Below, one piece after another: positions 37,143-51,003 of a DNA stretch of 52,572 bases. Position numbers and translations under genes: made by a program. This stretch comes from an uncultured Gammaproteobacteria bacterium (GTDB lineage Bacteria > Patescibacteriota > Microgenomatia > UBA8517). How positions within the stretch are numbered: the stretch's first letter is position 1; the number at the start of each line of letters is the position of its first letter. Location: contig CAZAUT010000006.1 in NCBI GenBank assembly GCA_964488535.1, forward strand, positions 1-52,572, given 5' to 3'. The notes below the pieces were generated by a model. The model was not told the DNA's origin and did not search any database. It saw nothing but the letters and a program-made list of their open reading frames with translations.

Positions 37143-37440
37143 CGGGAAAAGTATATAGTATATTGAATATGGTATATAGAGGGAAAAGGGATGTTGGAAT
37201 TGTGAATAATGAATAATGGGATATGGAGTATGAAAAAAGGATGGGAGGATAAGAGGAAAAGAGGATAAAAAGATATTTAGGAAAGAAGTGAAAAAAGTAG
37301 AATTAGTAGAATAACAATTTAGGATATTGGGATACTAAGATACTAAGAAAGAAAGTATATTGGGGAAAAGTGAATAAGACAATGGGGGTGGTATAAAAAT
37401 TTGAGTTGATGACTTGAGTTGATGACTTGAAAAGATAAAT
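37143..37440. repeat. Intergenic word-stutter array (mosaic)
   Basis: Example strings are gtatatagtatattgaatatggtatatagag, gaataatgaataatggg, aaaaagtagaattagtagaat, ttaggatattgggatactaagatactaag and ttgagttgatgacttgagttgatgacttg. Confidence 0.85.
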
Positions 37441-37453
37441 TCCAAAATTCATC

Positions 37454-37481
37454 TTGACAAACTATAGGAACATATTACAAT
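37454..37481 (+). promoter_or_regulatory. Sigma70-type promoter TTGACA-N16-TACAAT, 8 nt before the ATG
   Basis: The -35 is at 37454-37459 and the -10 at 37476-37481, with the ATG at 37490. This implies a leaderless or near-leaderless mRNA. Confidence 0.55.
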
Positions 37482-37489
37482 ACGCACGT

Positions 37490-37723
37490 ATGGCTGAAGT
37501 GATAAATTATCACCATTGCAATTGTGGTATGGCTATTCCTCGCCAGACCGACAAAGGTTGGGTTATGGGATGTCAGGTTAGACAGTTAGAAGACCAACTC
37601 GGACATAGACCTACAGCAAAAGAGATTCTTGAGTTGAAAAGGTCGGATGGGGGTTTTATTATCAGACTTACGAGCATACCCGTCGACAAATGTCCTAATG
37701 AATACAAACCTTTGAGATTTTAA
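37490..37723 (+). CDS. Small Cys/His-containing hypothetical protein
   Basis: 77 aa from MAEVINYHHCNCGMAIPRQ, ending ..PVDKCPNEYKPLRF. The start is chosen by promoter geometry, since the tracked TTG start is itself the -35 box. Confidence 0.5.
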   Translation: MAEVINYHHCNCGMAIPRQTDKGWVMGCQVRQLEDQLGHRPTAKEILELKRSDGGFIIRLTSIPVDKCPNEYKPLRF

Positions 37724-37887
37724 AATACAAACCGCTAAGTTTTTATATTTCATTCGCAGATCGAAAAGCAAAATACTGCACCTTCGGACAGGAAAGGGTT
37801 TGCTCTTCAAATGATTGCTAATCACTACACTTCGGATGAGAATATCGGGAGACACTACCCTGCAATTTAAACAGCCTATATTAAATA

Positions 37888-37915
37888 TTGACATTTATAC
37901 AATTAGAAATATAAT
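37888..37915 (+). promoter_or_regulatory. Consensus sigma70 promoter TTGACA-N16-TATAAT, 8 nt before the ATG
   Basis: Both hexamers are perfect, at 37888-37893 and 37910-37915. The ATG is at 37924. Confidence 0.6.
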
Positions 37916-37923
37916 ATCCGCTA

Positions 37924-38379
37924 ATGGGAATTACACCAAGACCAATGTGCTCCACACAGCATTTGCGTCTGACCAATAGTGAAGGATCTAGAATAGATTA
38001 CGGTTGCTTGGATTGGGTATTTCGGGAAGGCTTTGACATGGTAGCTCTTGTAAAGGCATTCGTCTCCCAACTTGAAAATGACAAACAGCAGAGGACACAA
38101 TATCAGCGCATCCAAAAAGCTGTCTCAACCCTTGCTTTCGAACATTACATGTTTGATGTTAATGAGCATGGCAAGCAATTTAATGATACAGAGTTAATAA
38201 GAGAAAAAGAGGATCTAATGAATAAAGTTCTCAAGGCTTATGGCATTCAACGTTCGGAGTACAGAATTAAGTTCGTCAGACAATGCCCTCCACGATTAGG
38301 TTCAGGCGATGAACCAATAAATGTTACAAAAGATTTTGCCACAATTGGTATTAGAATTGACAATCCAGCTAGGAAATAA
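37924..38379 (+). CDS. Hypothetical protein
   Basis: 151-aa ORF directly behind a consensus promoter. It has no recognisable motif. Confidence 0.6.
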   Translation: MGITPRPMCSTQHLRLTNSEGSRIDYGCLDWVFREGFDMVALVKAFVSQLENDKQQRTQYQRIQKAVSTLAFEHYMFDVNEHGKQFNDTELIREKEDLMNKVLKAYGIQRSEYRIKFVRQCPPRLGSGDEPINVTKDFATIGIRIDNPARK

Positions 38380-38392
38380 CTTGATTCAAAAT

Positions 38393-39505
38393 TTAAAGCC
38401 CAATTCTTTGAACAGAAACAACTTCTTCAAAAAAGGCTTTGTCCCCCGGACAGAGATAGCTTATGTCACCTCCCGAGGGGTCTTTTACAAAACGATTTTT
38501 CACACATCCTCCGTTACATATTCTCAAAAAATGACATTCCTTACAGCTGGGAGGCAGAGAAGTTTTCTTTGACCGTCCAAATTCCGTCTGCAATTTGGCG
38601 GACAGCATGTCCCCAACGCTCGCCTCCTGAATATTCCCAAGTATGTGACCAGAATCTACAAAAAAGTCGCAGGAATAAAAACCGCCGTCCGGCATTAGTA
38701 CGGGAAAATTACCGCAGGTTTCAGCATGGATACAACTTGATGCAGGAAAACCCTCTGCCTGCTTCCTAACATTGTTGATATTTGATACCTGCATACCACC
38801 ACCCATAAATCCAAGATTATTAAGCCATTTGTGATAAACACCTATCAAAAAACTACCCCACTTGTGCGGATCAACCGATACATCTTTTTTTAATTTGCCT
38901 TGACCATCTCTCTCAACAACCGGAATAAATGTCAAAATTGGAACTCCAAGGTTTTTAAAATAATCAAATATAATCTCCGGATGTTCCTGATTTGCAGGAT
39001 TAACGGTACAAACCACACCATAATCGATATTATGACTTCCGAGCAAATTTAAAGATCCTTCCAACTTTTCCTCATCCGACGTACCGTTACCGTGACGCAG
39101 ACGGGAACAATCTCCGGGCCCGTCACAGCTGACACCGACCTCAACTCCGTGTGTTTTGAAAAGTCTGCACCAGTCTTCATCAATCAACAGACCATTCGTC
39201 TGAACAACAAAGTGAACCACTTTACCTGATCGGCTTGCTTCTCTTTCAGCAAAGTCAATTGTATTTGCGAAGTACTCAGTCCCCATAAGAAGAGGCTCTC
39301 CTCCTTGGAAAAACAATTCGATTGCTTGTCCAGGTTGGCCATTAATCGATTCTGAAATTGCGCGATTCATTATATCCCGAGACATTAATTTCGGCTGTCG
39401 TCTGGCTTCCGTAGTGTCTTTTATGAAGCAATATTCGCAGCCTCTGTTACATCTTGAGCCTACAGGTTTGATGTTTATAGTAAAACGATTTTCAATTCTT
39501 TCCAT
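38393..39505 (-). CDS. Radical SAM / SPASM-domain enzyme, anSME-like (copy 2)
   Basis: The radical SAM motif is KPVGSRCNRGCEYCF (CxxxCxxC), with GGEPLL. The SPASM part reads SCIHAETCG...DGGFYSCDFF...LGNI...CKECHFLRICNGGCVKNR. Confidence 0.85.
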   Translation of the reverse strand: MERIENRFTINIKPVGSRCNRGCEYCFIKDTTEARRQPKLMSRDIMNRAISESINGQPGQAIELFFQGGEPLLMGTEYFANTIDFAEREASRSGKVVHFVVQTNGLLIDEDWCRLFKTHGVEVGVSCDGPGDCSRLRHGNGTSDEEKLEGSLNLLGSHNIDYGVVCTVNPANQEHPEIIFDYFKNLGVPILTFIPVVERDGQGKLKKDVSVDPHKWGSFLIGVYHKWLNNLGFMGGGMQVSNINNVRKQAEGFPASSCIHAETCGNFPVLMPDGGFYSCDFFVDSGHILGNIQEASVGDMLSAKLQTEFGRSKKTSLPPSCKECHFLRICNGGCVKNRFVKDPSGGDISYLCPGDKAFFEEVVSVQRIGL

Positions 39506-39518
39506 AAGTTTATTTAAT

Positions 39519-40619
39519 TTATAAGTTGATGTATCTGTAAAAAATACGGTAACTTGGGCAAAGGTAGTTTAAACCATTTGTGGAAATCCTATCCTTCGGA
39601 CATCCGCCATGACACATCTCCAATACGTCACAACTGAGACACTGCTGTGGTAAGCTTGACTTCATTTTTGCAAACGATTTTTGTTTTTGGGATTCCATCA
39701 ATTCCGGCAAGCTTTGTCCGTGTTGATTTATGTTTCCCAACCGCCAATTTGCAGATACATAATAATCACAAGGATAGACATCTCCCGTACGTTCGAGTAC
39801 AGGTTCCATTCCGCACGTTTCCGACTGCACACACGAGTCTGTAGGTTCTCCACGAGAAGGCAGTACAGCATCGGAAATATTTGAAACGAAAATCCCCTTT
39901 AAGAAATCTTTATTCCTGAAATATTCATCCGCAACGGTACACAAGAAACTTCCAAAACCATCCTCCGACACAGAATGTCCCATATTTCCATTATTATCCT
40001 GTGTGACAATCGGGATAAAAGTAATATTTTTTGCCTTCAGAGTATCTGTGAAATACCTGTACACTTTTTTAGGAGAATGCTCATTTAAATCATGAACACT
40101 GCATGTAACCGCCCAGTCCGTTTTCGAACCATTAAGCATTTCTGCGGCCTTTTCAACCCTTTTTATCGTTGGATCACCATTTCGATCCAAACGATAGCCG
40201 TTCAAACCCTCCGGCCCATCACAGCTGAGACCTATATGGGCATTATTGCGTGTAAAAAATTCGCACCATCTTTCATCAATCAACGATCCGTTGGTTTGAA
40301 ACCAAAGCACCTTTTCTCTATCCGGAGCATGTTCTGAAGCAAACTGCATCACTTTTTCATAAAAATCCAGTCCTCTCAAAAGAGGTTCACCTCCCTGAAA
40401 AAAAAACATGAGAGGCTTTCTTGGGCTTGTTAATTGCACCAGCTGTTTTACATATCTTTCAGCCGTTTCTAGCCCCATACCCCGCGTGTTCGAAGAATGG
40501 GATTCTATATTGCCTTTATAAAAACAGTATTTACAACCTCCTTCACAATCCGAAAGTCTTGTGAAGTTGCATTGTGAGCCTACAGGTTTAACAATGACAA
40601 GGTGTTCTTTGTCAGACAT
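39519..40619 (-). CDS. Radical SAM / SPASM-domain enzyme, anSME-like (copy 1)
   Basis: The motif region KPVGSQCNFTRLSDCEGGCKYCFY has CxxxCxxC preceded by an 8-residue insert after an extra Cys, with GGEPLL. The SPASM part reads SCVQSETCG...GDVYPCDYY...LGNI...CLSCDVLEMCHGGCPKDR. Confidence 0.85.
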   Translation of the reverse strand: MSDKEHLVIVKPVGSQCNFTRLSDCEGGCKYCFYKGNIESHSSNTRGMGLETAERYVKQLVQLTSPRKPLMFFFQGGEPLLRGLDFYEKVMQFASEHAPDREKVLWFQTNGSLIDERWCEFFTRNNAHIGLSCDGPEGLNGYRLDRNGDPTIKRVEKAAEMLNGSKTDWAVTCSVHDLNEHSPKKVYRYFTDTLKAKNITFIPIVTQDNNGNMGHSVSEDGFGSFLCTVADEYFRNKDFLKGIFVSNISDAVLPSRGEPTDSCVQSETCGMEPVLERTGDVYPCDYYVSANWRLGNINQHGQSLPELMESQKQKSFAKMKSSLPQQCLSCDVLEMCHGGCPKDRISTNGLNYLCPSYRIFYRYINL

Positions 40620-40629
40620 GTTTCAGTTT

Positions 40630-41442
40630 CTATTTTTTCGATAATATTTCATACGCCAGATTTACCTTTTTTGCTTTTTCGTCTCTTTCGGGATCAATCA
40701 TTTTACTGGCTCTTCCATAATCTGGATGCAATTGCATCATTTTATTTCTGTAATATTTCTTCAATTCTTCAGGAGTACATCCGACAGGAGCACCGAGTGT
40801 TTCATATAGCGATTGACGAGGATGAGTATCTAACGGTTTTCTATTATTCAAGGAAAGACCGGAATGTTCATAACCCGACCTGCCATTAACTGCCTGTTCT
40901 TTGTCAATTGTATTTTGTGGAAACACATCCCGCCATGTAGCCGTCAACTCATCTATCGGCTGAATGTCAATGTTTCCGACTAATATTCTTTGTTGTATCT
41001 TTAAAAGATATCCTGATTGAGACAGCCACCGTGCCACATTTTTACCGCTTTTAATATCAAATGCCAAAACCAACAAATCTCCCAAACCATACCTGCCTTC
41101 AGAGGCATTTCTTAGTGCAGTGTTCGGATAATCCGGACGGGTAGGGATTTGCATCTGATTCCGATTGCATGGTCTTGAACACATAGCTTTCCCCAAGCAC
41201 CTTTTACCATAAAGCACAACCTTTCCTTCCTCATCCACCCCCCAGCCGGAGGAGCCATCTCCACCGGAATTTGTAATACTGACGAAACGTCCCGAAATCG
41301 GACATTTTATACCAATACTTTTAAAGCCTTCCCTGGCGATGACAGCTACACAACCGGAAACTCTACCGTCACCCAGATCGGAGCAGTTAGTAATCAAATT
41401 AAACCTTGGTTCAGGAAATTCTTCCTTGCGTTGACCGGCCAT
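40630..41442 (-). CDS. Protein with a C-terminal J domain (DnaJ-like) and a Cys-containing N-terminal domain of unknown function
   Basis: The last roughly 60 aa are SLYETLGAPVGCTPEELKKYYRNKMMQLHPDYG...KKVNLAYEILSKK, with an HPD tripeptide. The N-terminal 200 aa match no motif I recognise. Confidence 0.75.
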   Translation of the reverse strand: MAGQRKEEFPEPRFNLITNCSDLGDGRVSGCVAVIAREGFKSIGIKCPISGRFVSITNSGGDGSSGWGVDEEGKVVLYGKRCLGKAMCSRPCNRNQMQIPTRPDYPNTALRNASEGRYGLGDLLVLAFDIKSGKNVARWLSQSGYLLKIQQRILVGNIDIQPIDELTATWRDVFPQNTIDKEQAVNGRSGYEHSGLSLNNRKPLDTHPRQSLYETLGAPVGCTPEELKKYYRNKMMQLHPDYGRASKMIDPERDEKAKKVNLAYEILSKK

Positions 41443-41454
41443 AATCTTTGTGGT

Positions 41455-41483
41455 ATTTTACCTTATAGTAATATTCAATTCAA
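41455..41483 (-). promoter_or_regulatory. Sigma70-type promoter TTGAAT-N17-TAAAAT for the J-domain/rSAM operon, 12 nt before the ATG
   Basis: Read on the minus strand, the -10 is at 41455-41460 and the -35 at 41478-41483. Confidence 0.5.
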
Positions 41484-41551
41484 GTAAATGCCAAAATCAT
41501 TTATTCACGATTAAGATACTCTTATGTGAAGAACGGTCTGCAGTTATAGCA

Positions 41552-41579
41552 TTGACAAACATACAACATGATATACAAT
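41552..41579 (+). promoter_or_regulatory. Sigma70-type promoter TTGACA-N16-TACAAT, 11 nt before the ATG
   Basis: The hexamers are the same as at 37454. The ATG is at 41591. Confidence 0.55.
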
Positions 41580-41590
41580 ACACCCATAAT

Positions 41591-42139
41591 ATGACTTATT
41601 CAAGACCGGAAGCGTGGAGTCGAGATTTTGGGTTGGATCAACAAAATTTGACGATTGCCATGGCTGCAGAAAAAGCCTATAGAAATGGCGAATATGAAGA
41701 TATTGTGGAGGCAGTAATACATTTCGGTCTTGAAATACGAGGCGAGGAATTTAAAAATACCGCTTTATATCAAGATCATCAGGCTAAAAAAAAAGAAGAA
41801 GAAGAAAGACGGGCAAAAGAAAGGGGAAAGGCAAAGATACAAGCCACGAGGTGTAAAACCGCTATTCAGCTGAATGTAGGCGGAGTTGTATGCAGGTCAC
41901 CGGCTGAAGCGCTTCAAACCCAAAGAGAAATACAAGAAAGAAAGAGATTGGTAAGGGGATTGCCGGGGCCAAGACCCGCCGAGCTCCCGCTAGGTGAAGG
42001 AATTTATGGACTTGAAAGCGGTGGACTTCAAGGGGCAGACAATCGCTCCAACTGTCAAGCCCTTTATATTGCTATGCAAATTCTTTCACGCAATAGAATC
42101 GTACCTGATCCAAAGAGAATTCCTCAGAAAAACAAATAG
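41591..42139 (+). CDS. Hypothetical protein with a charged KE-rich central helix
   Basis: 182 aa from MTYSRPEAWSRDFG. The start is set by promoter geometry. Confidence 0.55.
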   Translation: MTYSRPEAWSRDFGLDQQNLTIAMAAEKAYRNGEYEDIVEAVIHFGLEIRGEEFKNTALYQDHQAKKKEEEERRAKERGKAKIQATRCKTAIQLNVGGVVCRSPAEALQTQREIQERKRLVRGLPGPRPAELPLGEGIYGLESGGLQGADNRSNCQALYIAMQILSRNRIVPDPKRIPQKNK

Positions 42140-42323
42140 GGCTGATTAAATATTGAGAACAAAAACAAATCCAAAAGGGAGGTCTGGCGTAATTGAAACC
42201 GGATGTCTTTTAGAACAAGATTAAGCATGCAAATTTCTGTTCGTGCAGTTCTAATATTTTCTTATTACACAACTTGATAAGAAAAAATAAATTTAAAATA
42301 TAGGAGAAAACTTTCGTGGTCAA

Positions 42324-42950
42324 CTACGGTCTAATTACGTATATTAAACCACCATCGTATCCTTTGATCCCAAGGTGATCAAGGTTCATATAACGCCCCT
42401 CTCCCCCAAGATTAACCATTAGTGTCACCGGCTTTTTAGGTCGCACCCTGATACTTGACGGATAAGGACAATTTTCTGCTCGCAGGCATGTAACGGAGCC
42501 CAATATACCAAGACATTGAGGGACTGTTGCTTTCGAATCTCTTGTTTTAACAAAGCGCTTCTCAGTCGAACTATAATCTACTCTAGTGGAAACCTGTTTG
42601 TTTACATTAACATAAAGATCTTCAAATCTATTAATCCATTGGTTAGTTGAAGGATAGGCCACATTACCATTGGTGATAAAAAGATCTGTACTCGAACAAG
42701 GATTTCTCTCGACAACAGCTTCTACGTCATACTTTTCTCTCGCCAAAGAACAAGTTATCTTGTGCGGAATTGGCTGTGGAGGCAGTTTATACCCAAATAA
42801 AGTTTTCTCAATTCTTTCGCCTACTTCATCCCAGAGGGTTTTATCGAGGCGTGTGCAGTCAATGGCTACACAATACTTTTCATCAAAATTAGACAAGTTA
42901 CAGGGACAGTTTCTGACTACAAATACGCCAAGTGGTGTACGTTCTGCCAT
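42324..42950 (-). CDS. Hypothetical Cys-rich protein
   Basis: 208 aa containing NCPCNLSNFDEKYCVAIDC and CLRAENCPYP. The upstream minus-strand reading is TTGAAA-N18-TAATAT, 13 nt before the ATG. Confidence 0.6.
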   Translation of the reverse strand: MAERTPLGVFVVRNCPCNLSNFDEKYCVAIDCTRLDKTLWDEVGERIEKTLFGYKLPPQPIPHKITCSLAREKYDVEAVVERNPCSSTDLFITNGNVAYPSTNQWINRFEDLYVNVNKQVSTRVDYSSTEKRFVKTRDSKATVPQCLGILGSVTCLRAENCPYPSSIRVRPKKPVTLMVNLGGEGRYMNLDHLGIKGYDGGLIYVIRP

Positions 42951-43338
42951 ATCTTATAGAATGATATTACTAACTTTTTTCCACAATTTTCAACATGACA
43001 GTAAAACTTGAATTTTTCATTCTTAAGATATATTATAGACCTATAATGTCCTGAGGTACAGAATCAAAAACATTTTAGAGACGCTGCAGCGCTTATAGAC
43101 ACATATGTTGTTGCGGGTCAAAAACCCGACCCGAGATTAGTAAATCTATGGGTAGCTGAACAACTTCCAGACATAGACCAACTTCAGATTCCAACTCTGG
43201 ATTAATATACTTATATTTTTTGAAAGTCAGAGAGCGGGTTCCCGAAATATTTTCAAAACATGTGGCCGGTTCAAGCTTGTTTGGTGAAAAAGAGTAATTT
43301 CAATGTGAGAATGGAATTCGTTTATAACGAATAATATG

Positions 43339-44031
43339 TTATGTTATTGGAGTGGTAAATTCAAAGGGGTCCTGTCCCTTTTGCTGAAGAACAAAATTCG
43401 ATTTAGATTTCGTAGAACTAATTACCGTTCCCCAACTCGCGATCGTGTCGGTTAAGTGTGTATCAACTTCACCCGAACTTCTTACAACAACGTGCATTCC
43501 GGCACGCCACCCGTTTATGACCAGATCCTGCAGATGTGTGAGTGGTGTATGGGACACTTTAATTTTTTTACCATTTATGTCTATTGTGTCAGTTCCCAGA
43601 TTCTTTCCCATATTAAAGAGATGAGTATAACCAAACACTCCTATATCTTTAATGACCAAAAGCGAATGCTTATTGTCCTTTCTCCATTTTGGAATGTACG
43701 GAGGAGTTGCTGTACTTTTACTTTTCAAAGAGTCTGCTCTCAACCTTGAATTGATATCAGATTCGCTCCGTATCCTCTTTTCCATCAGGTTCCAAGCATC
43801 AATAATTGCTTTAGTTCCCACACCTATAGTTACAACATTTATACCTTTTTCTTCCGCCGATTCCAGCAGTTTATTAAGAAGCGGTTCCGTGGCCTCATAA
43901 TCGCCTTTTATCAATATACTTGAAAAAGGTCCCGAGAGATCAACTTTAACCGGAAAATCGTATTCATTAATACCCAAAAAGATTTCATCAGGAAAAACAG
44001 TCAATTTATCAAAACCACTCTCACGACTCAT
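43339..44031 (-). CDS. Hypothetical protein, possibly a degenerate FtsK/SpoIIIE-like P-loop fold lacking Walker A
   Basis: 231 aa from MSRESGFDKL. The element order VDLSGPFSSILIKGDYEATE / LLVIKDIG / RAGMHVVVRSSG / ASWGTVISSTKSKSNFVL parallels FtsK motor elements, but GxxGxGKS is absent. Confidence 0.3.
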   Translation of the reverse strand: MSRESGFDKLTVFPDEIFLGINEYDFPVKVDLSGPFSSILIKGDYEATEPLLNKLLESAEEKGINVVTIGVGTKAIIDAWNLMEKRIRSESDINSRLRADSLKSKSTATPPYIPKWRKDNKHSLLVIKDIGVFGYTHLFNMGKNLGTDTIDINGKKIKVSHTPLTHLQDLVINGWRAGMHVVVRSSGEVDTHLTDTIASWGTVISSTKSKSNFVLQQKGQDPFEFTTPIT

Positions 44032-44041
44032 AGTAATGCGT

Positions 44042-44069
44042 ATTATATACTCAAATACCCGTAAATCAA
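44042..44069 (-). promoter_or_regulatory. Sigma70-type promoter TTGATT-N16-TATAAT, 10 nt before the ATG at 44031
   Basis: Read on the minus strand. This supports the trimmed start of the 43339 gene. Confidence 0.55.
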
Positions 44070-44234
44070 GTGTCCTGATACAAATCCACATTTCAATTCT
44101 ACCAATAGTAGTCTCAAATCTTATGTCCCATGTGTACCATTGGTACATCCACTCCAACAATTACAATCATCCATCAAAATACAAAATTTAGAATATAGTG
44201 TTTGAATTATTATATCTCAAAGTGCAGCAACAAC

Positions 44235-44264
44235 TTGCATAAACGGTAAAGTTTTTTGTAAAAT
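44235..44264 (+). promoter_or_regulatory. Promoter-like TTGCAT-N18-TAAAAT, 11 nt before the ATG at 44276
   Basis: The hexamers were read directly. The spacer is slightly long. Confidence 0.4.
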
Positions 44265-44275
44265 ACGCAATCAAT

Positions 44276-44644
44276 ATGGAAATAATAAAGATAGGAAACA
44301 CGGTAAATGTTAGATGTCCTTTGCTTGCAACCGGCAGAACAATAGATGACAGTACGGAAGAACTTTGCCTAGGATATCTTAGGTGCCCTCATTTCAGAGA
44401 CGGAAAATGCAATATTGCCACAGTATCAACAGTAAAAAGAAGCAAACCCACAAGACCATTGGGTTGCCAGTTAAACAATGATCCGTACTGGGAAAATCGT
44501 CCAAACGGGGTATGCAGGGTAACAGGATGCCCGTATTTTGGCAAAATCTGCCAAATTTCCAAGCAACCGATAGGGCGTGACGCTTTTCCTACAGATATGG
44601 TTGCAGTAGCTGCGCCTCCAAAACCTTCAATCTTCAAACCTTAA
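44276..44644 (+). CDS. Small Cys-motif protein (two C-x5-CP-[HY]-F-x3/4-C units)
   Basis: 122 aa containing LCLGYLRCPHFRDGKC and GVCRVTGCPYFGKIC. The C-terminal half aligns with the 46318 protein. Its stop overlaps the abiEii stop. Confidence 0.6.
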   Translation: MEIIKIGNTVNVRCPLLATGRTIDDSTEELCLGYLRCPHFRDGKCNIATVSTVKRSKPTRPLGCQLNNDPYWENRPNGVCRVTGCPYFGKICQISKQPIGRDAFPTDMVAVAAPPKPSIFKP

Positions 44645-45408
44645 TCAATCTTAATATTTTTGATCTTTTCCAACAGTAATCTTTTGATATGTACAACAAC
44701 TCCCCTTTCCCGTCTTGGTAAAAATCTTCTAACGTCCGAGTCCAAATCCGTAATATTCCAAAGATTAATTTTTTTTATCAATTCATCTTTTTTGAATTTT
44801 TGATTGTAATATTTTAAATTTTTTCCGATAAAATTTTTGTCAAAAACGTCATATTTTGATAAAATGTACCACAAGTCATAAATATCCCTTCCCTTTTCCC
44901 TATTCATGACAGCTCTGATTTTCTCCGAAAATATTTCTTTTATTGACAAGTGTTTAACAACTACCACAGTTGACACCGGAAGTTCAGAAACAATTGGGTC
45001 CGATTCAGGATCAAGCACGTTTTCACTCTTGGAAAAATCAAGTTTAATTGTCAAATTCTGCGGACTGACATCTGTTTTCAGATAAATTTTAAAGCTGTGT
45101 CCGTGCAGAGTTTTTAAATCTTTTAAACTTATATCTTTATATTCGTACGCCAACGTTTTAATCACTTTTGAAAGCAGACTCTTAATTTCATTTTCCGACA
45201 GATCGGTCGTAAAATCCAAATCCTCGGAATACCTGCTTGAACCGTAAATAAGTCTTAAACACGTTCCTCCTTTAAAAAAGGTGCCTATCGCACGATCTTC
45301 GGAATAAAACGCATTTAAAAAACTAATCTGGACGATTTCCCGCAAAAGCGAGAAGTTGTCAATATCATATTTAATTGATAAACGTGTTAATGTGTTGGTG
45401 TCTATCAT
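44641..45408 (-). CDS. abiEii: AbiEii/AbiGii-family nucleotidyltransferase toxin (type IV TA)
   Basis: 255 aa. The motif FKGGTCLRLIYGSSRYSEDLDF is the family signature. There is a 4-nt ATGA overlap with the upstream antitoxin gene. Confidence 0.8.
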   Translation of the reverse strand: MIDTNTLTRLSIKYDIDNFSLLREIVQISFLNAFYSEDRAIGTFFKGGTCLRLIYGSSRYSEDLDFTTDLSENEIKSLLSKVIKTLAYEYKDISLKDLKTLHGHSFKIYLKTDVSPQNLTIKLDFSKSENVLDPESDPIVSELPVSTVVVVKHLSIKEIFSEKIRAVMNREKGRDIYDLWYILSKYDVFDKNFIGKNLKYYNQKFKKDELIKKINLWNITDLDSDVRRFLPRRERGVVVHIKRLLLEKIKNIKID

Positions 45409-45986
45409 ATTTTCTTTAATATCCGTTTGATTGCTTTAATATTGAAGACTTTTATATAACTATTCAACAGCTTTCGATTGATGATTGAAAAATCAAGCTC
45501 AGACATATCGATTTTCCGTAATCCCTTTGTTTGTAAATAGATAATATCAAGAAGCGCTTTTTCCGGTTTCGCGATTAAAAAATCGTCCGTTTTCTCATAT
45601 CCCCAAAAATATTTCGCGTCCATATGCTGATATTCAAAATTATATATGGAGTCAATTTCAACTGACTTTTTTAATGTTACCGATGTAACAATATAGGGAA
45701 ACTGAGGCAAAACACCCCAAAAATTCAGAGCGCTTTCAAAACTAATATATGACGGGGATACAACAAAATTTGCCATAGAAAAAGTGCTATAACTTGAGTT
45801 TTCCAATACATATTTTCCTTTTACAATACGCCTGATTATCCCATTTTTTTCAAGTCTTTGAATTATTTTATATATATTGTTGCGATTGTTCTCATCCATT
45901 AAACTTGCTATTTCGGTTCTTGTAAAAAATTTCAGCTTCTTCTCCTGAAGTTTTTTGATTATATCTAATTGTTTTATAGATGCCAT
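45405..45986 (-). CDS. abiEi: AbiEi-family antitoxin / transcriptional regulator
   Basis: 193 aa with an N-terminal wHTH (FFTRTEIASLMDENNRNNIYKIIQRLEKNGIIRRIVKGKYV). It is translationally coupled to abiEii. Confidence 0.75.
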   Translation of the reverse strand: MASIKQLDIIKKLQEKKLKFFTRTEIASLMDENNRNNIYKIIQRLEKNGIIRRIVKGKYVLENSSYSTFSMANFVVSPSYISFESALNFWGVLPQFPYIVTSVTLKKSVEIDSIYNFEYQHMDAKYFWGYEKTDDFLIAKPEKALLDIIYLQTKGLRKIDMSELDFSIINRKLLNSYIKVFNIKAIKRILKKI

Positions 45987-45996
45987 ATTTGGTATA

Positions 45997-46025
45997 ATTA
46001 TATATTAATCCTATCATCGTGTCAA
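45997..46025 (-). promoter_or_regulatory. Consensus sigma70 promoter TTGACA-N17-TATAAT for abiEi-abiEii, 10 nt before the ATG
   Basis: Read on the minus strand, the -10 is at 45997-46002 and the -35 at 46020-46025. Both hexamers are perfect. Confidence 0.6.
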
Positions 46026-46059
46026 GAGCAAAAGAGTGTTTTATTAACAGAGATCTGCT

Positions 46060-46225
46060 TTTAAGAGGGTATTCCTGTCGTACGGGTTGCAGGGAGATCC
46101 CTGTTGAAACATCCGTGCATAGATAAACTACCGAGGGCTAAGAGCCCTCTGTATTCTCACCCTTCGGGCTCAACAAGTATATCATTCGTTCGCTTCATCC
46201 CAGGGCTAAAAGCCCTGGGTGTTCG
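46060..46225. ncRNA. Candidate structured RNA / palindrome cluster (unclassified)
   Basis: Hairpins are at 46090-46103 (cagggagatccctg), 46133-46149 (gagggct-aag-agccctc) and 46199-46219 (cccagggc-taaaa-gccctggg). An alternative pairing joins 46143-46148 with 46166-46171. The overlapping 67-aa ORF looks non-coding. Confidence 0.3.
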
Positions 46226-46275
46226 CGATGATTATGATAAAATCCACAAATTCGTACAGATAATACAAAGTACGA

Positions 46276-46305
46276 TTGACAAATACCGCGCAGATGTCTT
46301 ACAAT
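46276..46305 (+). promoter_or_regulatory. Sigma70-type promoter TTGACA-N18-TACAAT, 12 nt before the ATG at 46318
   Basis: The hexamers were read directly. Confidence 0.5.
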
Positions 46306-46317
46306 AAGCCCCAAAAT

Positions 46318-46518
46318 ATGAGACGCAAAACATACGAATTCGCAGAAGAGTGCATTTTAAATGAGGCATGGCGGAAACCGGGAAAATTTCCAGGGGTGTG
46401 TAGGGTCCAAACCTGTCCATTATATCAACAAGGCTGCAGATATTCTGAAAATCCGATAAGGGACCGCGTTTCGTTTCCTTACCAGGACACCGTGCCCAGT
46501 GAAGTAGCAGCAAAATAA
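46318..46518 (+). CDS. Small Cys-motif protein (paralogue of the C-terminal half of 44276..44644)
   Basis: 66 aa, MRRKTYEFAEECILNEAWRKPGKFPGVCRVQTCPLYQQGCRYSENPIRDRVSFPYQDTV. It aligns with CQLNNDPYWENRPNGVCRVTGCPYFGKICQISKQPIGRDAFPTDMV. Confidence 0.6.
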   Translation: MRRKTYEFAEECILNEAWRKPGKFPGVCRVQTCPLYQQGCRYSENPIRDRVSFPYQDTVPSEVAAK

Positions 46519-46677
46519 TATTCCGACCGTGTAGCGAAAGTATCATTTTCTTCGTAATTGTCATAGAAATTTCATTCAACTAACAAAATAATTTAATAGT
46601 TATATCGATTGAAAAAAGCGGTTATAAATTGCGTTTGACTTCGTCCTCCCTTCAGTGGTATATTATGGGACAAAATT

Positions 46678-47787
46678 ATGAATACAGAAATAATTCTCCC
46701 ATCACAAGAATCTGCAAGGCAACTTAACATTGCACCTGATTATGCTGAGTTTATCCAACATAGAAACAGTGAATATTCGGATGCCTTAAGATCTTTGGGT
46801 GAAAAATTCAAACGAATGGGGTTTGGAAGTGGTCCGGGAATGGACATTAGAATTAGAGCCGATGTAATTTCACAAACATACATGAACATTCTTCAGACAA
46901 TTAGGGAAGGCAGTAATGTATCACTTGCTTTAATTAAAACAATGAATCAATTAGGTGGCGGAAGTGGAACGACTGTCGAAGATCGCTTTGATTTGGCGAT
47001 AAGTGCATCCAGAACTTTGCTTCATTCTATGGGTGGTTCTGGAGGTACGTTTTCACTTTTCAGACGCGATAATTCTTTAAATCTAACCGCTGGGTTGGGA
47101 ATTTATGATCCCTACAAAGGCCCATTAAAAGTTATAGTCGACGGTGCTCCAAAAACAAAAAGACTTCTTCAGGAATTAAAAGCTGAAACTCATAAAACCG
47201 GTTCTTCAGCCGCTAGACTTTCTCGAAAGCTTGATCACAGTTTAAATTCTTTGTCTAATCAAGCCCAGGGAGCGGATGAAAGTATGGGTTATATGACTAA
47301 ATTTCAGGATGACCGAGATAATGCCACCGACAATTTGGATACAATTTACACTGCTGCACAAAACAAAGAACCTTTAAGAGGCCCTGTTGATGCTTTTGCA
47401 TTCAGTGCCAGAAACGCTGCACAGAGCAGTCAAGGTGCCATAAAATCTAACAAGGACCTGGGTAAAGTGTTGCAGGAAGCTGCAGCATCCACCTCAATAC
47501 TAAGTCAAATCGCGGCACTTGTACAAGCACATAGAAGTGCTGAGATCTCGCGCGGTGTTGAAGCACTGGTTCATACCTCAGCTCCTTTTTGGCTTTTTGA
47601 AACGATGGCACACGAAACAGAAAGGGCGCAATTTGTAACCACACATATATTATTAAAAATGCTTGCATACATGCGACACGGAGAAGAGAACATTCCAAGT
47701 GAAATCATGGAAACAGGAGGCCGACTTCTATCGCCACGGGGTTTGAAAGATGAGATCATTGAATCAACTTGTATTGATGCTGAATAA
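46678..47787 (+). CDS. Hypothetical protein, Gly/Ser-rich and helical
   Basis: 369-aa ORF behind TTGACT-N18-TATATT. It has no recognisable motif. Confidence 0.65.
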   Translation: MNTEIILPSQESARQLNIAPDYAEFIQHRNSEYSDALRSLGEKFKRMGFGSGPGMDIRIRADVISQTYMNILQTIREGSNVSLALIKTMNQLGGGSGTTVEDRFDLAISASRTLLHSMGGSGGTFSLFRRDNSLNLTAGLGIYDPYKGPLKVIVDGAPKTKRLLQELKAETHKTGSSAARLSRKLDHSLNSLSNQAQGADESMGYMTKFQDDRDNATDNLDTIYTAAQNKEPLRGPVDAFAFSARNAAQSSQGAIKSNKDLGKVLQEAAASTSILSQIAALVQAHRSAEISRGVEALVHTSAPFWLFETMAHETERAQFVTTHILLKMLAYMRHGEENIPSEIMETGGRLLSPRGLKDEIIESTCIDAE

Positions 47788-47835
47788 GATCACTAATTCC
47801 TAATTATGGAAACAAGGTAAGAAAAATTAATTTCC

Positions 47836-48561
47836 ATGTCTGCAGAAAATACAGCTGCAAGTTTTTTCCGACAAGCTCCCCCACTTTGTGAACAGAGGTT
47901 TGATTATCTTTTTGCCGATGATTTCAGATTAAGAATAACTGCAGGAGATGTTGCAAAAACGGGAGGAGAAATTGCTTGGGAAAACAGAGGGTATATAAAA
48001 GGAGCTGCTTTGGGAATCAGTACAATTTTATTAAGCGGCTGCGGATCAAACTCATCGGAAGCTGTTAATATCAATTTGACACCAGCGGAAGGTTGGGGAA
48101 TAGGAAGCGGATTATTTTGGGCACTTGAAGAGGTATTTGAAAAAGATAAACACCCAAGTGTGTTAGGCAAAGTATTAGCAATTCCAATAAAATTTATCGG
48201 TGGGTATTTGCTTGGACGTGGACTAAGTACAAACTTGCAAAATATAAACGACTGGGGCCTTCTTGAAAACTTAACACCAGCAGTAGAAACTCTTGGTGGT
48301 GCAGTTATTGTGGCAAAAGAAACAAGCATCAAAGCGTTAATAGCCACGTTTTTTCATGCCACAGCAAATGCCGGAAAAACAGCTGTAAATAAAATTACCG
48401 CACCCGGAAGACAACACCGTGAAGATTTACTAAACGAAGCGTTGGGAATAATAAGCAGTAGGGGCTGTACATACCGGCGTGCAGTTACAACTCTAAAAAG
48501 AATCAATATGACGGACGAAGAAATTATAACTACCTTAAGAGCTCATAGGTGGAATGTTTAG
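47836..48561 (+). CDS. Hypothetical membrane protein or lipoprotein
   Basis: 241 aa with hydrophobic segments, including GAALGISTILLSGCGSNSS (lipobox-like). Confidence 0.6.
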   Translation: MSAENTAASFFRQAPPLCEQRFDYLFADDFRLRITAGDVAKTGGEIAWENRGYIKGAALGISTILLSGCGSNSSEAVNINLTPAEGWGIGSGLFWALEEVFEKDKHPSVLGKVLAIPIKFIGGYLLGRGLSTNLQNINDWGLLENLTPAVETLGGAVIVAKETSIKALIATFFHATANAGKTAVNKITAPGRQHREDLLNEALGIISSRGCTYRRAVTTLKRINMTDEEIITTLRAHRWNV

Positions 48562-48723
48562 ACTGAAATCAAACAAACATTCATACTCACTCAAATTGAT
48601 CAGCAATGGAAAGCAAATATATAAAAATTAAACTCTTGTTTTTTAACTTATAGCATTAGGCGTCTTCATTTCCCATGCCGAGACAAGTAAGAAATTTCGA
48701 AGATTAGACGTAACAAAGATCAA

Positions 48724-49143
48724 ATGAAAGAATTACAAACACGCACCTACGAATTGAACCCCTTGCGGAGATCACCAATCCTCGCAAGGATACAAACAAT
48801 TACTGCTGCTTCTGCAGTATCGTTGACAACTTCGGGTTGCAAAGCCGACGAAATTGCAAAAACATGGGGAGATTTTAAAAATTTCGCATGTGACACATGT
48901 GTCGTTGGCAGTGCTTTTTTTACTATACTCTATCTTTCAACAATTCTACCCGGGAAAATTAATGAGACGAGAGCCATGCTCGACCTTCGGGATAATCCCA
49001 ATATAAATGATGAAGAATTTAAAAAATTGTCAAACCGCTACCATCATGGCGATGATGAATTGTTCTTAGAATACTTGAGGACTTACGAACCTAGTATACC
49101 TATGAAAATTATTCTCTCGATGCTGGGCGATGAAGAAGTTTAA
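48724..49143 (+). CDS. Hypothetical membrane protein or lipoprotein
   Basis: 139 aa containing AASAVSLTTSGCKADE and one further TM helix. Confidence 0.55.
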   Translation: MKELQTRTYELNPLRRSPILARIQTITAASAVSLTTSGCKADEIAKTWGDFKNFACDTCVVGSAFFTILYLSTILPGKINETRAMLDLRDNPNINDEEFKKLSNRYHHGDDELFLEYLRTYEPSIPMKIILSMLGDEEV

Positions 49144-49221
49144 GTTAAAATTGACTATAGTAACAAATGTAATTTTATAGCTAGCAAACACAATTTCATA
49201 TTTAAATACATCCAAATACAG

Positions 49222-49249
49222 TTGAATTATATAAAAATACATATATAAT
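49222..49249 (+). promoter_or_regulatory. Sigma70-type promoter TTGAAT-N16-TATAAT upstream of 49273
   Basis: The hexamers were read directly. The leader is 23 nt. Confidence 0.45.
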
Positions 49250-49272
49250 ATATAAACATTATAGGTCTTTCT

Positions 49273-49905: not shown

Positions 49906-49956
49906 GATTTACTTCTCCATTTCAATTGTTGATTACAGAAAATAATCCCCAATTGG

Positions 49957-49965
49957 TGATATAAT
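49957..49965 (+). promoter_or_regulatory. Extended -10 element TGaTATAAT, 15 nt before the ATG at 49981
   Basis: The sequence ggTGaTATAAT was read directly. No good -35 is present, as expected for an extended -10 promoter. Confidence 0.45.
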
Positions 49966-49980
49966 CTTCTTTTATCATTT

Positions 49981-50391: not shown

Positions 50392-50394
50392 AAA
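50361..50394. repeat. Direct repeat copy 1 (3' end of 49981..50391)
   Basis: The sequence aatgaatgccagcgtgagacagattaagtagaaa compares with 50969-51002, aataagtgccggcgtgagacagattaagtagaaa. That is 34 bp with 3 mismatches, and the last 23 bp are identical. Confidence 0.9.
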
Positions 50395-51002: not shown

Positions 51003-51003
51003 A

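What the first reader, a model, noticed from the sequence alone, without database searches (positions are those of the whole stretch)
38393..41483. Operon of a C-terminal J-domain protein followed by two tandem anSME-like radical SAM/SPASM enzymes
The operon is on the minus strand, with a promoter at 41455-41483. A 270-aa protein has a last roughly 60 aa that form a J domain with HPD. Its N-terminal 200 aa are novel and contain several Cys pairs (NCSDLGDGRVSGC, KCPISG, CLGKAMCSRPC). After a 10-nt gap comes rSAM copy 1, and after a 13-nt gap rSAM copy 2.

Both rSAMs have the KPVGS.C...C..C start, GGEPLL, and a full SPASM C-terminus. These are the features of anaerobic sulfatase-maturase-like and peptide-modifying maturases. 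No sulfatase or classic C/S-x-P-x-R substrate is nearby. Copy 1 has an unusual 8-residue insertion within the cluster-binding loop.

J domains partner with Fe-S or radical SAM chemistry in a few known cases. HscB works in Fe-S cluster delivery, and the eukaryotic J-protein Dph4 works with the Dph1/Dph2 radical SAM pair. I know of no described bacterial operon that hard-wires a J-domain protein to SPASM maturases. This is my best candidate for an undescribed system. It could be a chaperone-assisted protein or peptide modification module, possibly acting on the neighbouring Cys-motif proteins.
Basis: partly seen in the sequence, partly recalled or inferred. Interest (0 to 1): 0.75.

Follow-up and report, generated by a model that had tools for sequence, protein, structure and literature searches.

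The report
J-domain protein plus two sulfatase-maturase-like enzymes
A tiny uncultured (Patescibacteria) bacterium carries a one-of-a-kind three-gene operon: a chaperone-recruiting J-domain protein followed by two divergent radical SAM enzymes of the sulfatase-maturase type. The gene and domain calls hold, but the arrangement occurs in no other sequenced genome, so what it does stays a hypothesis.

Summary
Three minus-strand genes lie 10 and 13 nt apart. The first is a 270-aa protein whose last ~60 aa are a J domain with HPD (Pfam DnaJ 45 bits, cut-off 27.8). The other two are radical SAM/SPASM proteins of 366 and 370 aa.

Both enzymes are closest to anaerobic sulfatase maturases (anSME). They keep all 11 cluster cysteines and the Asp277 equivalent. 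They score below the NCBIfam anSME cut-off (320 and 301 against 349) and both lack a His that 99% of relatives keep. They are 35% identical to each other and at most 40% identical to anything in 5.8 billion proteins.

The J protein's N-terminal 208 aa has no homologue in 1.84 billion representative proteins. The operon sits in a ~14-kb lineage-specific island between ArgRS and an M16 peptidase, which are adjacent in five related genomes.

None of 119 anSME-like loci elsewhere has a J-domain neighbour or an adjacent second copy. At least 34 of the 80 genome loci carry a sulfatase nearby. The window has no sulfatase.

The arrangement is therefore real and unique, but n=1. The "system" idea and the proposed Cys-motif substrates have no comparative support. 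Interest is moderate.

The parts
41455..41483 (-). Weak sigma-70-like promoter (TTGAAT-17-TAAAAT). The -10 box ends 12 nt before the J gene ATG, implying a very short leader.
   Evidence: 9 of 12 matches; sequence. Many genes of the contig have a TATAAT-like box in the 25 nt before the ATG, and few have a Shine-Dalgarno-like sequence.
40630..41442 (-). Gene for a 270-aa class-C (type III) J-domain protein, first gene of the operon.
40819..41442 (-). N-terminal aa 1-208 of the J protein. It has no homologue, is predicted beta-rich, and has six Cys (C20, C31, C47, C82, C88, C92). A polar linker of roughly aa 165-208 follows the beta-rich part.
   Evidence: No homologue in 5.8 billion proteins, 1.84 billion representatives, metagenome contigs or the PDB. 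The AF2 single-sequence model is poor (pLDDT 35) but mostly strands. Cys positions.
40633..40818 (-). C-terminal J domain (aa 209-270), with HPD at aa 239-241 (nt 40720-40728). The protein ends right after helix III, so helix IV is absent.
   Evidence: Pfam DnaJ 45.2 bits, profile positions 2-55 of 63. Aligns with the Thermus DnaJ2 J domain. Positions.
39519..40619 (-). rSAM copy 1: anSME-like radical SAM/SPASM enzyme, 366 aa. Cluster motif region at nt 40524-40571, with the 8-aa insertion FTRLSDCE at nt 40542-40565. SPASM cysteines lie within nt 39558-39833.
   Evidence: TIGR03942 320.1 bits (cut-off 349.45). anSMEcpe 4K37 at E = 3e-53. All cluster Cys and the Asp277 equivalent (D285) are kept. 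It keeps 63 of 73 family-conserved columns.
38393..39505 (-). rSAM copy 2: anSME-like radical SAM/SPASM enzyme, 370 aa. Canonical C19-x3-C23-x2-C26 at nt 39428-39451. SPASM cysteines lie within nt 38450-38734.
   Evidence: TIGR03942 300.7 bits (cut-off 349.45). 4K37 at E = 2e-45. All cluster Cys and the Asp277 equivalent (D280) are kept. It keeps 58 of 73 conserved columns and has lost His130, Glu268 and Tyr24.
37143..51129 (.). About 14 kb of lineage-specific island between the M16 peptidase gene (35871-37142) and the ArgRS gene (51130-52560). It holds the operon, an AbiE pair and about 14 genes without homologues.
   Evidence: ArgRS directly abuts M16 in related Patescibacteria loci L002-L005 and L011. 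The site holds different, unrelated genes in L006 and L001. No Pfam, PHROG or PADLOC match for the other island proteins scanned.
44641..45986 (-). AbiEii toxin (44641-45408) and AbiEi antitoxin (45405-45986), about 3.2 kb from the operon. This is the only low-GC part of the island.
44276..44644 (+). 122-aa protein with 8 Cys that carries two C-x(4-5)-C-P-x-F-x(3-4)-C motifs. It is a possible but unproven substrate candidate.
   Evidence: It shares a 29-aa segment (48% identity) with the 46318-46518 product. No relatives in genome contigs.
46318..46518 (+). 66-aa protein with the paralogous GVCRVxxCPxYxxxC segment.

Best explanation
This is a lineage-specific three-gene operon in a variable island of a Patescibacteria (Microgenomates-like) chromosome.

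Shown:
- The first gene encodes a class-C J-domain protein. Its unique, beta-rich, Cys-containing N-terminal domain is joined by a polar linker to a C-terminal J domain with HPD.
- The next two genes encode old, strongly diverged paralogues of the anaerobic sulfatase-maturase family.
- Each enzyme has the SAM cluster motif, both auxiliary [4Fe-4S] sites and the catalytic Asp.

Inferred:
- Both enzymes are active radical SAM dehydrogenases. They would abstract a C-beta hydrogen from a Cys or Ser of an unfolded polypeptide, which is formylglycine-type oxidation.
- Their target is not a canonical sulfatase. They fall below the family cut-off, both lack a 99%-conserved His, and no sulfatase is in reach.
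- The J protein would use its J domain to load the cell's DnaK onto whatever its N-terminal domain binds. That could be the substrate, kept unfolded for the two maturases. Alternatively the N-terminal domain is itself the substrate, since its gene sits where a precursor gene normally sits.

Only the domain content and gene order are shown. The functional coupling is inferred from a 10-nt intergenic gap in a single genome.
For: - Tight co-orientation with 10-nt and 13-nt gaps. The three genes have near-identical, host-like composition: GC 0.41-0.42, GC3 0.36-0.37.
- The J domain passes Pfam and has HPD.
- Both rSAMs match anSME far better than any other curated family: 320 and 301 bits, against 144-145 for the next family, DynA.
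- All 3+4+4 cluster Cys and Asp277 are kept.
- Both score below the TIGR03942 cut-off and share the loss of His130, which 99% of 238 homologues keep, plus further shared substitutions.
- The two copies are exclusive sisters in 50 of 60 NJ bootstraps, yet only 35% identical. That fits an old duplication followed by divergence.
- No sulfatase in 52 kb, and no sulfatase motif in the proteins of the island and its flanks that were checked.
- anSMEs are known to act on unfolded peptide segments before the sulfatase folds (established knowledge of AtsB/anSME biochemistry; general background in PMC10114670). A holdase or unfoldase partner is therefore mechanistically sensible.
Against: - n = 1. There is no homologue of the J protein's N-terminal domain anywhere. 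No second genome has the arrangement, and none of 119 anSME-like loci has a J-domain neighbour. Co-function therefore has no comparative support.
- The nearest homologues are ordinary anSMEs with sulfatases nearby.
- The rest of this genome is unseen, so a sulfatase could lie elsewhere.
- No substrate has been identified.
- Long-branch attraction could explain the sister grouping.
- The J domain lacks helix IV.
- The structure model of the J protein is uninformative.
Confidence: 0.35

Rival explanations
1. Ordinary sulfatase maturation. The two enzymes are fast-evolving but conventional anSMEs, for example one for Cys-type and one for Ser-type sulfatases. They would serve sulfatases encoded elsewhere in the genome, and the J-domain gene would be an unrelated neighbour that happens to be co-transcribed.
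For: - The best family match by far is TIGR03942, and the best structure match is anSMEcpe.
- All catalytic and cluster residues are kept.
- The closest homologues sit near sulfatases: L081, L083 and at least 34 of 80 genome loci.
- Patescibacteria proteins are generally divergent, which could alone explain the sub-threshold scores.
- Only 52 kb of the genome is visible.
Against: - Both copies score below the curated equivalog cut-off and lack the 99%-conserved His130. Copy 2 also lacks Glu268 (99% conserved) and Tyr24.
- No sulfatase in 52 kb.
- No Patescibacteria genome appears among the 80 best anSME loci of 185,579 species.
- Adjacent pairs are not seen in the 80 genome loci checked for a second copy.
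- The location in an island of genes without homologues is atypical for a housekeeping maturase.
Confidence: 0.25
2. Cofactor or electron-supply helper. The J protein's Cys-bearing N-terminal domain binds iron or an Fe-S cluster. Together with DnaK it would deliver clusters or electrons to the two enzymes, each of which holds three clusters. This would be analogous to HscB-HscA-IscU cluster transfer, or to eukaryotic Dph4/Dph3 supporting Dph1-Dph2.
For: - Six Cys in the N-terminal domain, including C82-x5-C88-x3-C92.
- Each enzyme needs three [4Fe-4S] clusters.
- J proteins are known partners of Fe-S delivery (HscB) and of a radical SAM-like pair (Dph4). This is established knowledge, not tested here.
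Against: - No similarity of the N-terminal domain to IscU, Nfu, HscB, CSL zinc fingers or any Pfam or NCBIfam family.
- The Cys spacing matches no known cluster-binding motif.
- The Cys fraction of the island proteins is not raised: 1.94% against 1.88% outside.
- Other anSMEs need no dedicated helper.
Confidence: 0.12
3. Conflict or defence module. The operon would be part of a variable defence island, with the rSAMs modifying a peptide or protein effector, or a phage target, and the J protein acting as a chaperone-based switch.
For: - It lies in a lineage-specific hot spot next to a complete AbiEi/AbiEii pair.
- It is about 3.5 kb from two RHS polymorphic-toxin cassettes.
- Chaperone-linked conflict systems with a radical SAM component that modifies a peptide effector have been described (PMC7159879).
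Against: - No PADLOC model matches beyond the generic radical SAM core: pVip at 44-48 bits, against 300+ for anSME.
- No phage or plasmid signatures.
- Composition is host-like.
- No recurrence in other islands.
Confidence: 0.1
4. Chance neighbours or decaying cargo. The genes are intact ORFs, but the arrangement has no joint function. The J protein's N-terminus would be a de novo or rapidly drifting sequence fused to a captured J domain.
For: The N-terminal domain has no homologue anywhere. The J domain is truncated after helix III. The whole island consists of genes without homologues.
Against: - All three ORFs are intact.
- 79-86% of family-conserved positions and every cluster ligand are maintained in both enzymes despite 65% divergence, which indicates purifying selection.
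- The gene spacing is operon-like.
Confidence: 0.13

Closest known systems
Anaerobic sulfatase-maturating enzymes (AtsB, anSMEcpe PDB 4K36-4K39, ChuR; NCBIfam TIGR03942)
   Same: Full-length collinear match (aa 8-364 to profile positions 2-353). Radical SAM core plus SPASM domain. All cysteines of the SAM cluster and of auxiliary clusters I and II, and the proposed catalytic Asp277, are kept in both copies.
   Different: - Scores of 320 and 301 bits are below the 349.45 cut-off.
- Identity to any relative is at most 40%.
- Both lack His130, which 99% of relatives keep. Copy 2 also lacks Glu268 and Tyr24.
- Copy 1 has an 8-aa insertion in the cluster loop.
- The genes are adjacent, follow a J-domain gene, and have no sulfatase within 52 kb.
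Class C (type III) J-domain proteins with a C-terminal J domain, e.g. E. coli DjlA
   Same: The J domain with HPD is at the extreme C-terminus, behind a non-DnaJ client or localisation domain. There is a weak match to the J part of the DjlA model (NF006948, profile positions 199-262 of 267).
   Different: The N-terminal domain is unrelated to DjlA or to anything else. No transmembrane segment is evident on reading the sequence. Helix IV is missing.
HscB-HscA-IscU (ISC Fe-S cluster transfer)
   Same: A specialised J protein works alongside Fe-S proteins (established knowledge).
   Different: HscB has an N-terminal J domain and a C-terminal helical IscU-binding domain. No HscB model appears among the matches at E up to 0.1. 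No isc or hscA genes are in the window.
Eukaryotic Dph4 (J domain plus CSL zinc finger) with the Dph1-Dph2 radical SAM-like pair
   Same: A J-domain protein with a Cys-ligated metal domain supports a pair of paralogous SAM-radical enzymes that modify a protein. This resemblance is recalled from the literature and was not tested here.
   Different: Different enzyme superfamily branch, different domain order, no sequence similarity, and eukaryotic or archaeal rather than Patescibacteria.
RiPP radical SAM/SPASM maturase clusters (e.g. two-maturase RumMC1/RumMC2; SCIFF, ranthipeptide, QhpD)
   Same: SPASM enzymes act on Cys-containing polypeptides, sometimes as two paralogous maturases in one cluster (PMC8188230, listed). 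A gene sits directly upstream of the maturases.
   Different: - There is no N-terminal RRE or leader-recognition extension.
- No short precursor gene, protease or exporter.
- Matches to these families are far weaker than to anSME: 60-145 bits against 300-320.
Chaperone-centred conflict systems with a radical SAM effector component (Kaur et al. 2020, PMC7159879)
   Same: A chaperone or co-chaperone gene is linked to a radical SAM enzyme thought to modify a peptide effector, and the location is a variable island.
   Different: Those systems use MoxR-vWA-FtsH, not a J domain. There is no sequence relationship, and no PADLOC match.

Membership tests
Anaerobic sulfatase-maturating enzyme (anSME, TIGR03942) | Radical SAM CX3CX2C cluster motif near the N-terminus | tested here: met
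   Copy 2 has C19-x3-C23-x2-C26. Copy 1 has C25-x3-C29-x2-C32, or C17-x11-C29-x2-C32 if the ancestral Cys is the one used.
Anaerobic sulfatase-maturating enzyme (anSME, TIGR03942) | SPASM domain with eight Cys ligating two auxiliary [4Fe-4S] clusters (anSMEcpe C255/261/276/330 and C317/320/326/348) | tested here: met
   All eight positions hold Cys in both copies. TIGR04085 scores 62.6 and 56.3 bits against a cut-off of 27.
Anaerobic sulfatase-maturating enzyme (anSME, TIGR03942) | Proposed catalytic base Asp277, next to Cys276 | tested here: met
   The CD dipeptide is kept: CDY in copy 1 (D285) and CDF in copy 2 (D280). The role of Asp277 is from my knowledge of Goldman et al. 2013, a paper that could not be opened here.
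Anaerobic sulfatase-maturating enzyme (anSME, TIGR03942) | Score at or above the curated equivalog cut-off (349.45 bits) | tested here: not met
   320.1 and 300.7 bits.
Anaerobic sulfatase-maturating enzyme (anSME, TIGR03942) | Family-wide near-invariant residues (73 columns at least 90% conserved in 238 homologues) | tested here: inconclusive
   63 of 73 and 58 of 73 are kept. His130 (99% conserved) is deleted in both copies, and Glu268 (99%) is Met in copy 2. The roles of these residues are unknown to me.
Anaerobic sulfatase-maturating enzyme (anSME, TIGR03942) | A sulfatase substrate with C/S-x-P/A-x-R in the genome, often nearby | tested here: not met
   No sulfatase-like sequence in the 52.6-kb window (best tblastn E = 1.1). 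No sulfatase-type motif context in any ORF. The rest of the genome is not available.
Anaerobic sulfatase-maturating enzyme (anSME, TIGR03942) | Formylglycine formation on a sulfatase peptide | not testable with these tools
   This needs anaerobic enzymology and mass spectrometry.
J-domain protein (Pfam PF00226) | HMM score above the gathering threshold | tested here: met
   45.2 bits against 27.8, over aa 212-269.
J-domain protein (Pfam PF00226) | HPD tripeptide between helices II and III | tested here: met
   HPD at aa 239-241, aligned to the HPD of Thermus DnaJ2.
J-domain protein (Pfam PF00226) | Complete four-helix J fold | tested here: inconclusive
   The match covers profile positions 2-55 of 63 and the protein ends after the AYEILSKK helix, so helix IV is absent. 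The AF2 model has low confidence.
J-domain protein (Pfam PF00226) | Stimulation of Hsp70 (DnaK) ATPase | not testable with these tools
   This is a biochemical assay. No dnaK gene lies in the window.
Canonical DnaJ (class A, TIGR02349) | G/F region, CxxCxGxG zinc-finger domain and C-terminal client-binding domains | tested here: not met
   Only the J part matches: 35.2 bits against a cut-off of 377.2, profile positions 3-55 of 354.
HscB (Fe-S co-chaperone) | N-terminal J domain plus C-terminal helical IscU-binding domain | tested here: not met
   No HscB model appears among the Pfam or NCBIfam matches at E up to 0.1. Here the J domain is C-terminal.
RiPP radical SAM/SPASM maturase cluster | Leader-recognition (RRE) extension on the maturase and an adjacent short precursor gene | tested here: not met
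   Both enzymes start directly with the radical SAM core: aa 8-10 align to anSME profile position 2. The upstream gene encodes a 270-aa protein. No protease or transporter is nearby.
Known anti-phage defence systems (PADLOC-DB 2.0) | Match to a defence-system protein model | tested here: not met
   The J protein has no match. The rSAMs match only the generic core of pVip, at 44-48 bits.

The most novel reading that the evidence does not exclude
The operon is a previously unseen chaperone-coupled protein-modification module. A dedicated J-domain adaptor would bring DnaK-held, unfolded, non-sulfatase clients to two specialised anSME-type radical SAM enzymes. The clients could be the J protein's own Cys-bearing N-terminal domain or the island's C-x(n)-C-P-x-[FY] proteins. 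The enzymes would install formylglycine or another C-beta-derived modification, possibly as part of a conflict or defence island in an episymbiotic bacterium.
Probability: 0.12. Interest if true: 0.75.

Novelty: new variant of a known kind. Interest (0 to 1): 0.4.

Why it matters
If the J protein and the two maturases really work together, it would be the first bacterial case of an Hsp70 co-chaperone hard-wired to radical SAM/SPASM protein maturases. It would also extend anSME-type chemistry beyond sulfatases, in a phylum (Patescibacteria) whose biochemistry is largely unknown. It would give a concrete handle on how radical SAM maturases get access to unfolded protein substrates.

As it stands, the finding is a well-verified but singular gene arrangement. 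Its value is as a cloning and expression target, not as an established system.

Tried and rejected
1. Homologues of the J protein's N-terminal domain. I ran a word-indexed search of 5.8 billion proteins, an exhaustive HMMER search of 1.84 billion representatives, a metagenome contig scan and a PDB search at E up to 10.
- Nothing real was found.
- The three weak hits are tandem-repeat proteins whose scores add up over copies of a short motif. I rejected them.

2. Structure prediction of the J protein without an alignment gave pLDDT 35. It was unusable, so I did not run a fold search.

3. Exact-sequence contig look-up of the J protein found nothing on record.

4. The same trio elsewhere. I examined 80 genome loci and 39 further loci (36 viral, 3 from exact-protein look-ups) holding anSME-like genes. 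None has a J domain. None of the 80 genome loci has an adjacent second copy; two have a second copy 6-7 kb away.

5. Sulfatase or sulfatase motif in the window: none.

6. Relatives of candidate substrate proteins 44276-44644 and 42324-42950 in genome contigs: none.

7. Island-flanking att-like repeats: none. Only a local 41-nt repeat occurs around gene 50430-50858.

8. Recent horizontal transfer of the operon judged by composition: rejected, because GC and GC3 are host-like.

9. Recent tandem duplication: rejected. The copies are 35% identical, and 161 and 87 of the other 238 homologues in the set score higher against rSAM1 and rSAM2 than the other copy does. An old duplication remains likely.

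10. Defence-system and phage-family matches for the operon: none meaningful.

11. Reading the anSMEcpe structure papers (PMC3666706, PMC4326806, PMC3897223) to map peptide-contact residues: the papers are not held. The role of His130 therefore remains unassigned.

12. Literature search for J domain plus radical SAM plus SPASM, and for Patescibacteria plus SPASM: no papers.

Full report
**1. What is in the sequence**

They are separated by 10 nt and 13 nt.

The claimed promoter at 41483-41455 exists as TTGAAT-17-TAAAAT, with 9 of 12 matches. On its own that is weak, because the scan finds 27 such sites in 5.3 kb against about 14 expected. Its -10 box ends 12 nt before the ATG. Many genes of this contig have a TATAAT-like box in the 25 nt before the start codon, and few have a Shine-Dalgarno-like sequence, so the site fits the local pattern. 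The two rSAM genes have no Shine-Dalgarno sequence either and would rely on the short gaps for translational coupling.

**2. Domain calls**

The J-domain call survives HMM scoring.
- Pfam DnaJ scores 45.2 bits (gathering score 27.8) over aa 212-269.
- HPD is at aa 239-241.
- phmmer aligns the region to solved J domains such as Thermus DnaJ2.
- The protein ends immediately after helix III, so helix IV is missing.
- Only the J part matches DnaJ models (35 bits against a 377-bit cut-off). This is a class-C J-domain protein, not DnaJ.

Both downstream proteins pass Pfam Radical_SAM, Pfam SPASM and TIGR04085.
- Their best curated family by a wide margin is the anaerobic sulfatase maturase equivalog TIGR03942, at 320.1 and 300.7 bits. 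The next family, DynA, scores about 145.
- Both are below the curated cut-off of 349.45.
- The best solved structure is anSMEcpe 4K37, at E = 3e-53 and 2e-45.

**3. Catalytic apparatus**

I aligned both copies with anSMEcpe and twelve homologues.
- Both keep the three SAM-cluster cysteines.
- Both keep all eight auxiliary-cluster cysteines, at the positions of anSMEcpe C255/261/276/330 and C317/320/326/348.
- Both keep the Asp next to C276, the proposed general base. That assignment is from my knowledge of Goldman et al. 2013, which could not be opened here.

The "8-residue insertion" in copy 1 is real: C17-N-[FTRLSDCE]-GG-C29-KY-C32. The insertion contains Cys25, which regenerates a canonical C25-x3-C29-x2-C32. 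Either Cys could be the ligand.

Across 238 family members, 73 alignment columns are at least 90% conserved. Copy 1 keeps 63 of them and copy 2 keeps 58.
- Both copies have lost His130 (anSMEcpe numbering), which 99% of relatives keep.
- Both share several further substitutions: F117, F240, L25, L163, F222 and D231.
- Copy 2 also replaces Glu268 (99% conserved) and Tyr24.

The enzymes therefore look catalytically competent, but they form a divergent sublineage of the family.

**4. Relationship of the two copies**

They are 35% identical. By raw BLAST score they are not each other's best hits. Against the same set of 238 other homologues, 161 score higher than copy 2 does against copy 1, and 87 score higher than copy 1 does against copy 2.

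A neighbour-joining tree of 122 sequences places them as exclusive sisters in 50 of 60 bootstraps. Both are long branches, so long-branch attraction is a caveat. The shared derived losses point the same way. The most likely history is an old tandem duplication followed by strong divergence, not a recent duplication.

**5. Uniqueness**

- The best relatives of copy 1 and copy 2 in 5.8 billion proteins are only 38-40% and 36-38% identical. They are generic anSMEs, many of them with a C-terminal SEC-C motif that the window proteins lack.
- The J protein's N-terminal 210 aa finds nothing in the word-indexed search.
- It finds nothing real in an exhaustive HMMER pass over 1.84 billion representatives. 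The three weak hits there are tandem-repeat proteins.
- It finds nothing in metagenome contigs or in the PDB.
- A single-sequence AlphaFold model is unusable (pLDDT 35). It suggests a beta-rich N-terminal part followed by a disordered linker.

**6. Genomic setting**

The M16 peptidase next door places the contig in Patescibacteria, Microgenomates-like. Its best match is 66% identical, in a Patescibacteria MAG.

In five related genomes (L002-L005, L011), ArgRS ends within about 20 nt of the M16 start. In L002, adenylate kinase follows M16, as it does here. In the window, ArgRS (51130-52560) and M16 (35871-37142) are separated by about 14 kb. Window 37143-51129 is therefore a lineage-specific island at a variable site. 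L006 carries 7 kb of different, mostly uncharacterised genes at the same place, and L001 has yet other genes.

The island holds:
- the operon;
- a complete AbiEi/AbiEii pair;
- about 14 genes with no Pfam, PHROG or PADLOC match among those scanned. The two tried in genome contigs have no relatives.

The composition of the three operon genes is uniform and host-like. Only the AbiE pair is low in GC. I found no flanking att-like repeats.

Elsewhere the window has ordinary chromosomal genes (MreB, WecG-type glycosyltransferase, a methylase, two tRNAs) and two RHS polymorphic-toxin cassettes. It has no sulfatase, no dnaK and no Fe-S assembly genes.

**7.

(a) The J-domain call passes HMM scoring.

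(b) "Homologous pairs always next to sulfatases" cannot be tested as written, because no homologous pairs exist. Single homologues commonly sit near sulfatases.
- The closest homologue of each copy that I inspected has a sulfatase 4-5 kb away.
- At least 34 of the 80 best genome loci have one within 8 kb.
- Several viral-collection loci have one too.

(c) "Not co-conserved in any other genome" is true.
- None of 119 anSME-like loci has a J-domain gene.
- None of the 80 genome loci, the set checked for a second copy, has an adjacent one.

So the arrangement is real and apparently unique, but it has no comparative support.

**8. Candidate substrates**

None of the 22 proteins checked in the island and its flanks has a sulfatase-type motif in a convincing context.

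Five island proteins, including the J protein, contain C-x(2-6)-C-P, CP-x-[FY] or CLG motifs.
- The 44276 and 46318 products share a GVCRVxxCPx[YF]xxxC segment, 48% identical over 29 aa, E = 2e-4 within the window.
- The CP dipeptide is about three times enriched in the island: 11 in 3034 aa against 13 in 11361 aa outside.
- Overall Cys content is not raised (1.94% against 1.88%).
- I defined the motif after looking at the sequences.

I treat this as a lead, not evidence.

**9. Interpretation**

What is shown:
- a tight operon of a class-C J-domain protein and two diverged paralogues of the anSME family;
- both enzymes have intact cluster and catalytic residues;
- the operon lies in a variable island of a Patescibacteria chromosome.

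What is inferred:
- the enzymes carry out anSME-type C-beta hydrogen abstraction and oxidation on an unfolded polypeptide that is probably not a canonical sulfatase;
- the J protein recruits DnaK to that client, or is itself the client (confidence about 0.35).

Rivals:
- ordinary sulfatase maturases with an unrelated neighbour (0.25);
- an Fe-S or electron-delivery helper in the manner of HscB or Dph4 (0.12);
- a conflict or defence module, given the AbiE and RHS context and described chaperone-linked conflict systems with radical SAM components (PMC7159879) (0.10);
- no joint function (0.13).

**10. Novelty and score**

No paper in the searchable library links J domains with radical SAM/SPASM enzymes. 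From memory, and untested here, dnaJ-containing operons in Bacillus include non-SPASM radical SAM genes. Those involve canonical DnaJ and different enzymes.

I class the finding as a new variant of a known kind. It is a well-verified and unusual arrangement of known domains, interesting as an experimental target. With a single occurrence and no identified substrate, it does not yet qualify as a system. Interest: 0.4.

Noticed in passing
window 15112-34357: Two paralogous RHS-repeat polymorphic-toxin cassettes in a Patescibacteria genome.
- Giant proteins 15112-21012 (1966 aa) and 27422-32437 (1671 aa) are 39% identical.
- Each has an SpvB-like partner (21907-23439 and 25887-27425, 42% identical).
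- Each has a 162- or 174-aa paralogue (21416-21904 and 32397-32921, 54% identical).
- 32936-34357 repeats aa 1535-1729 of the first RHS protein at 50% identity, and may be an orphan toxin tip.
- RDD-family membrane proteins lie between the cassettes.
   Followed up: partly
whole window (start-codon upstream regions): Few genes have a Shine-Dalgarno-like sequence. Many have a TATAAT-like box in the 25 nt before the ATG, for example at 11544, 14801, 37490, 37924, 41591, 45986 and 49981. This suggests widespread leaderless or very short-leader mRNAs in this organism. Perfect or near-perfect sigma-70 promoters sit before the plus-strand genes at 37924 and 41591.
   Followed up: partly
window 37143-51129, versus loci L002-L006, L011, L001: The junction between ArgRS and the M16 peptidase is a variable hot spot in this group. 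The two genes are adjacent in five relatives. L006 has 7 kb of other genes there (two DUF1003 proteins, an Avd-like protein and proteins with no Pfam match). Here the gap is 14 kb.
   Followed up: partly
window 44641-45986: A complete AbiEi/AbiEii (type IV toxin-antitoxin / abortive infection) pair with clearly lower GC (0.30-0.33) than its surroundings. It is probably a more recent acquisition inside the island.
   Followed up: yes
window 50361-50401 and 50969-51009: A 41-nt direct repeat (85% identical) brackets gene 50430-50858. The first copy overlaps the 3' end of gene 49981-50391. This may be the footprint of a small insertion.
   Followed up: no
window 44276-44644, 46318-46518, 49981-50391, 42324-42950, 40630-41442: A short recurrent Cys motif, C-x(2-6)-C-P-x-[FY] and/or C-L-G, occurs in five island proteins including the J protein. 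CLG occurs 3 times in the island and 0 times outside it. The CP dipeptide is about 3-fold enriched. The motif was defined after looking at the sequences, and its significance is unknown.
   Followed up: partly
homologues P0003-P0121: More than half of the closest anSME-family relatives carry a C-terminal SEC-C motif (PF02810), a small zinc-binding tail. Both window proteins lack it. I did not look into the role of this tail in anSMEs.
   Followed up: no
window 34456-35586: The adenylate kinase homologue is unusually long as called: 376 aa, with the ADK domain spread over aa 74-272 and matching only profile positions 1-123 of 151. The relative L002 matches over aa 9-375 at 62% identity, so the long form is conserved there.
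   Followed up: no
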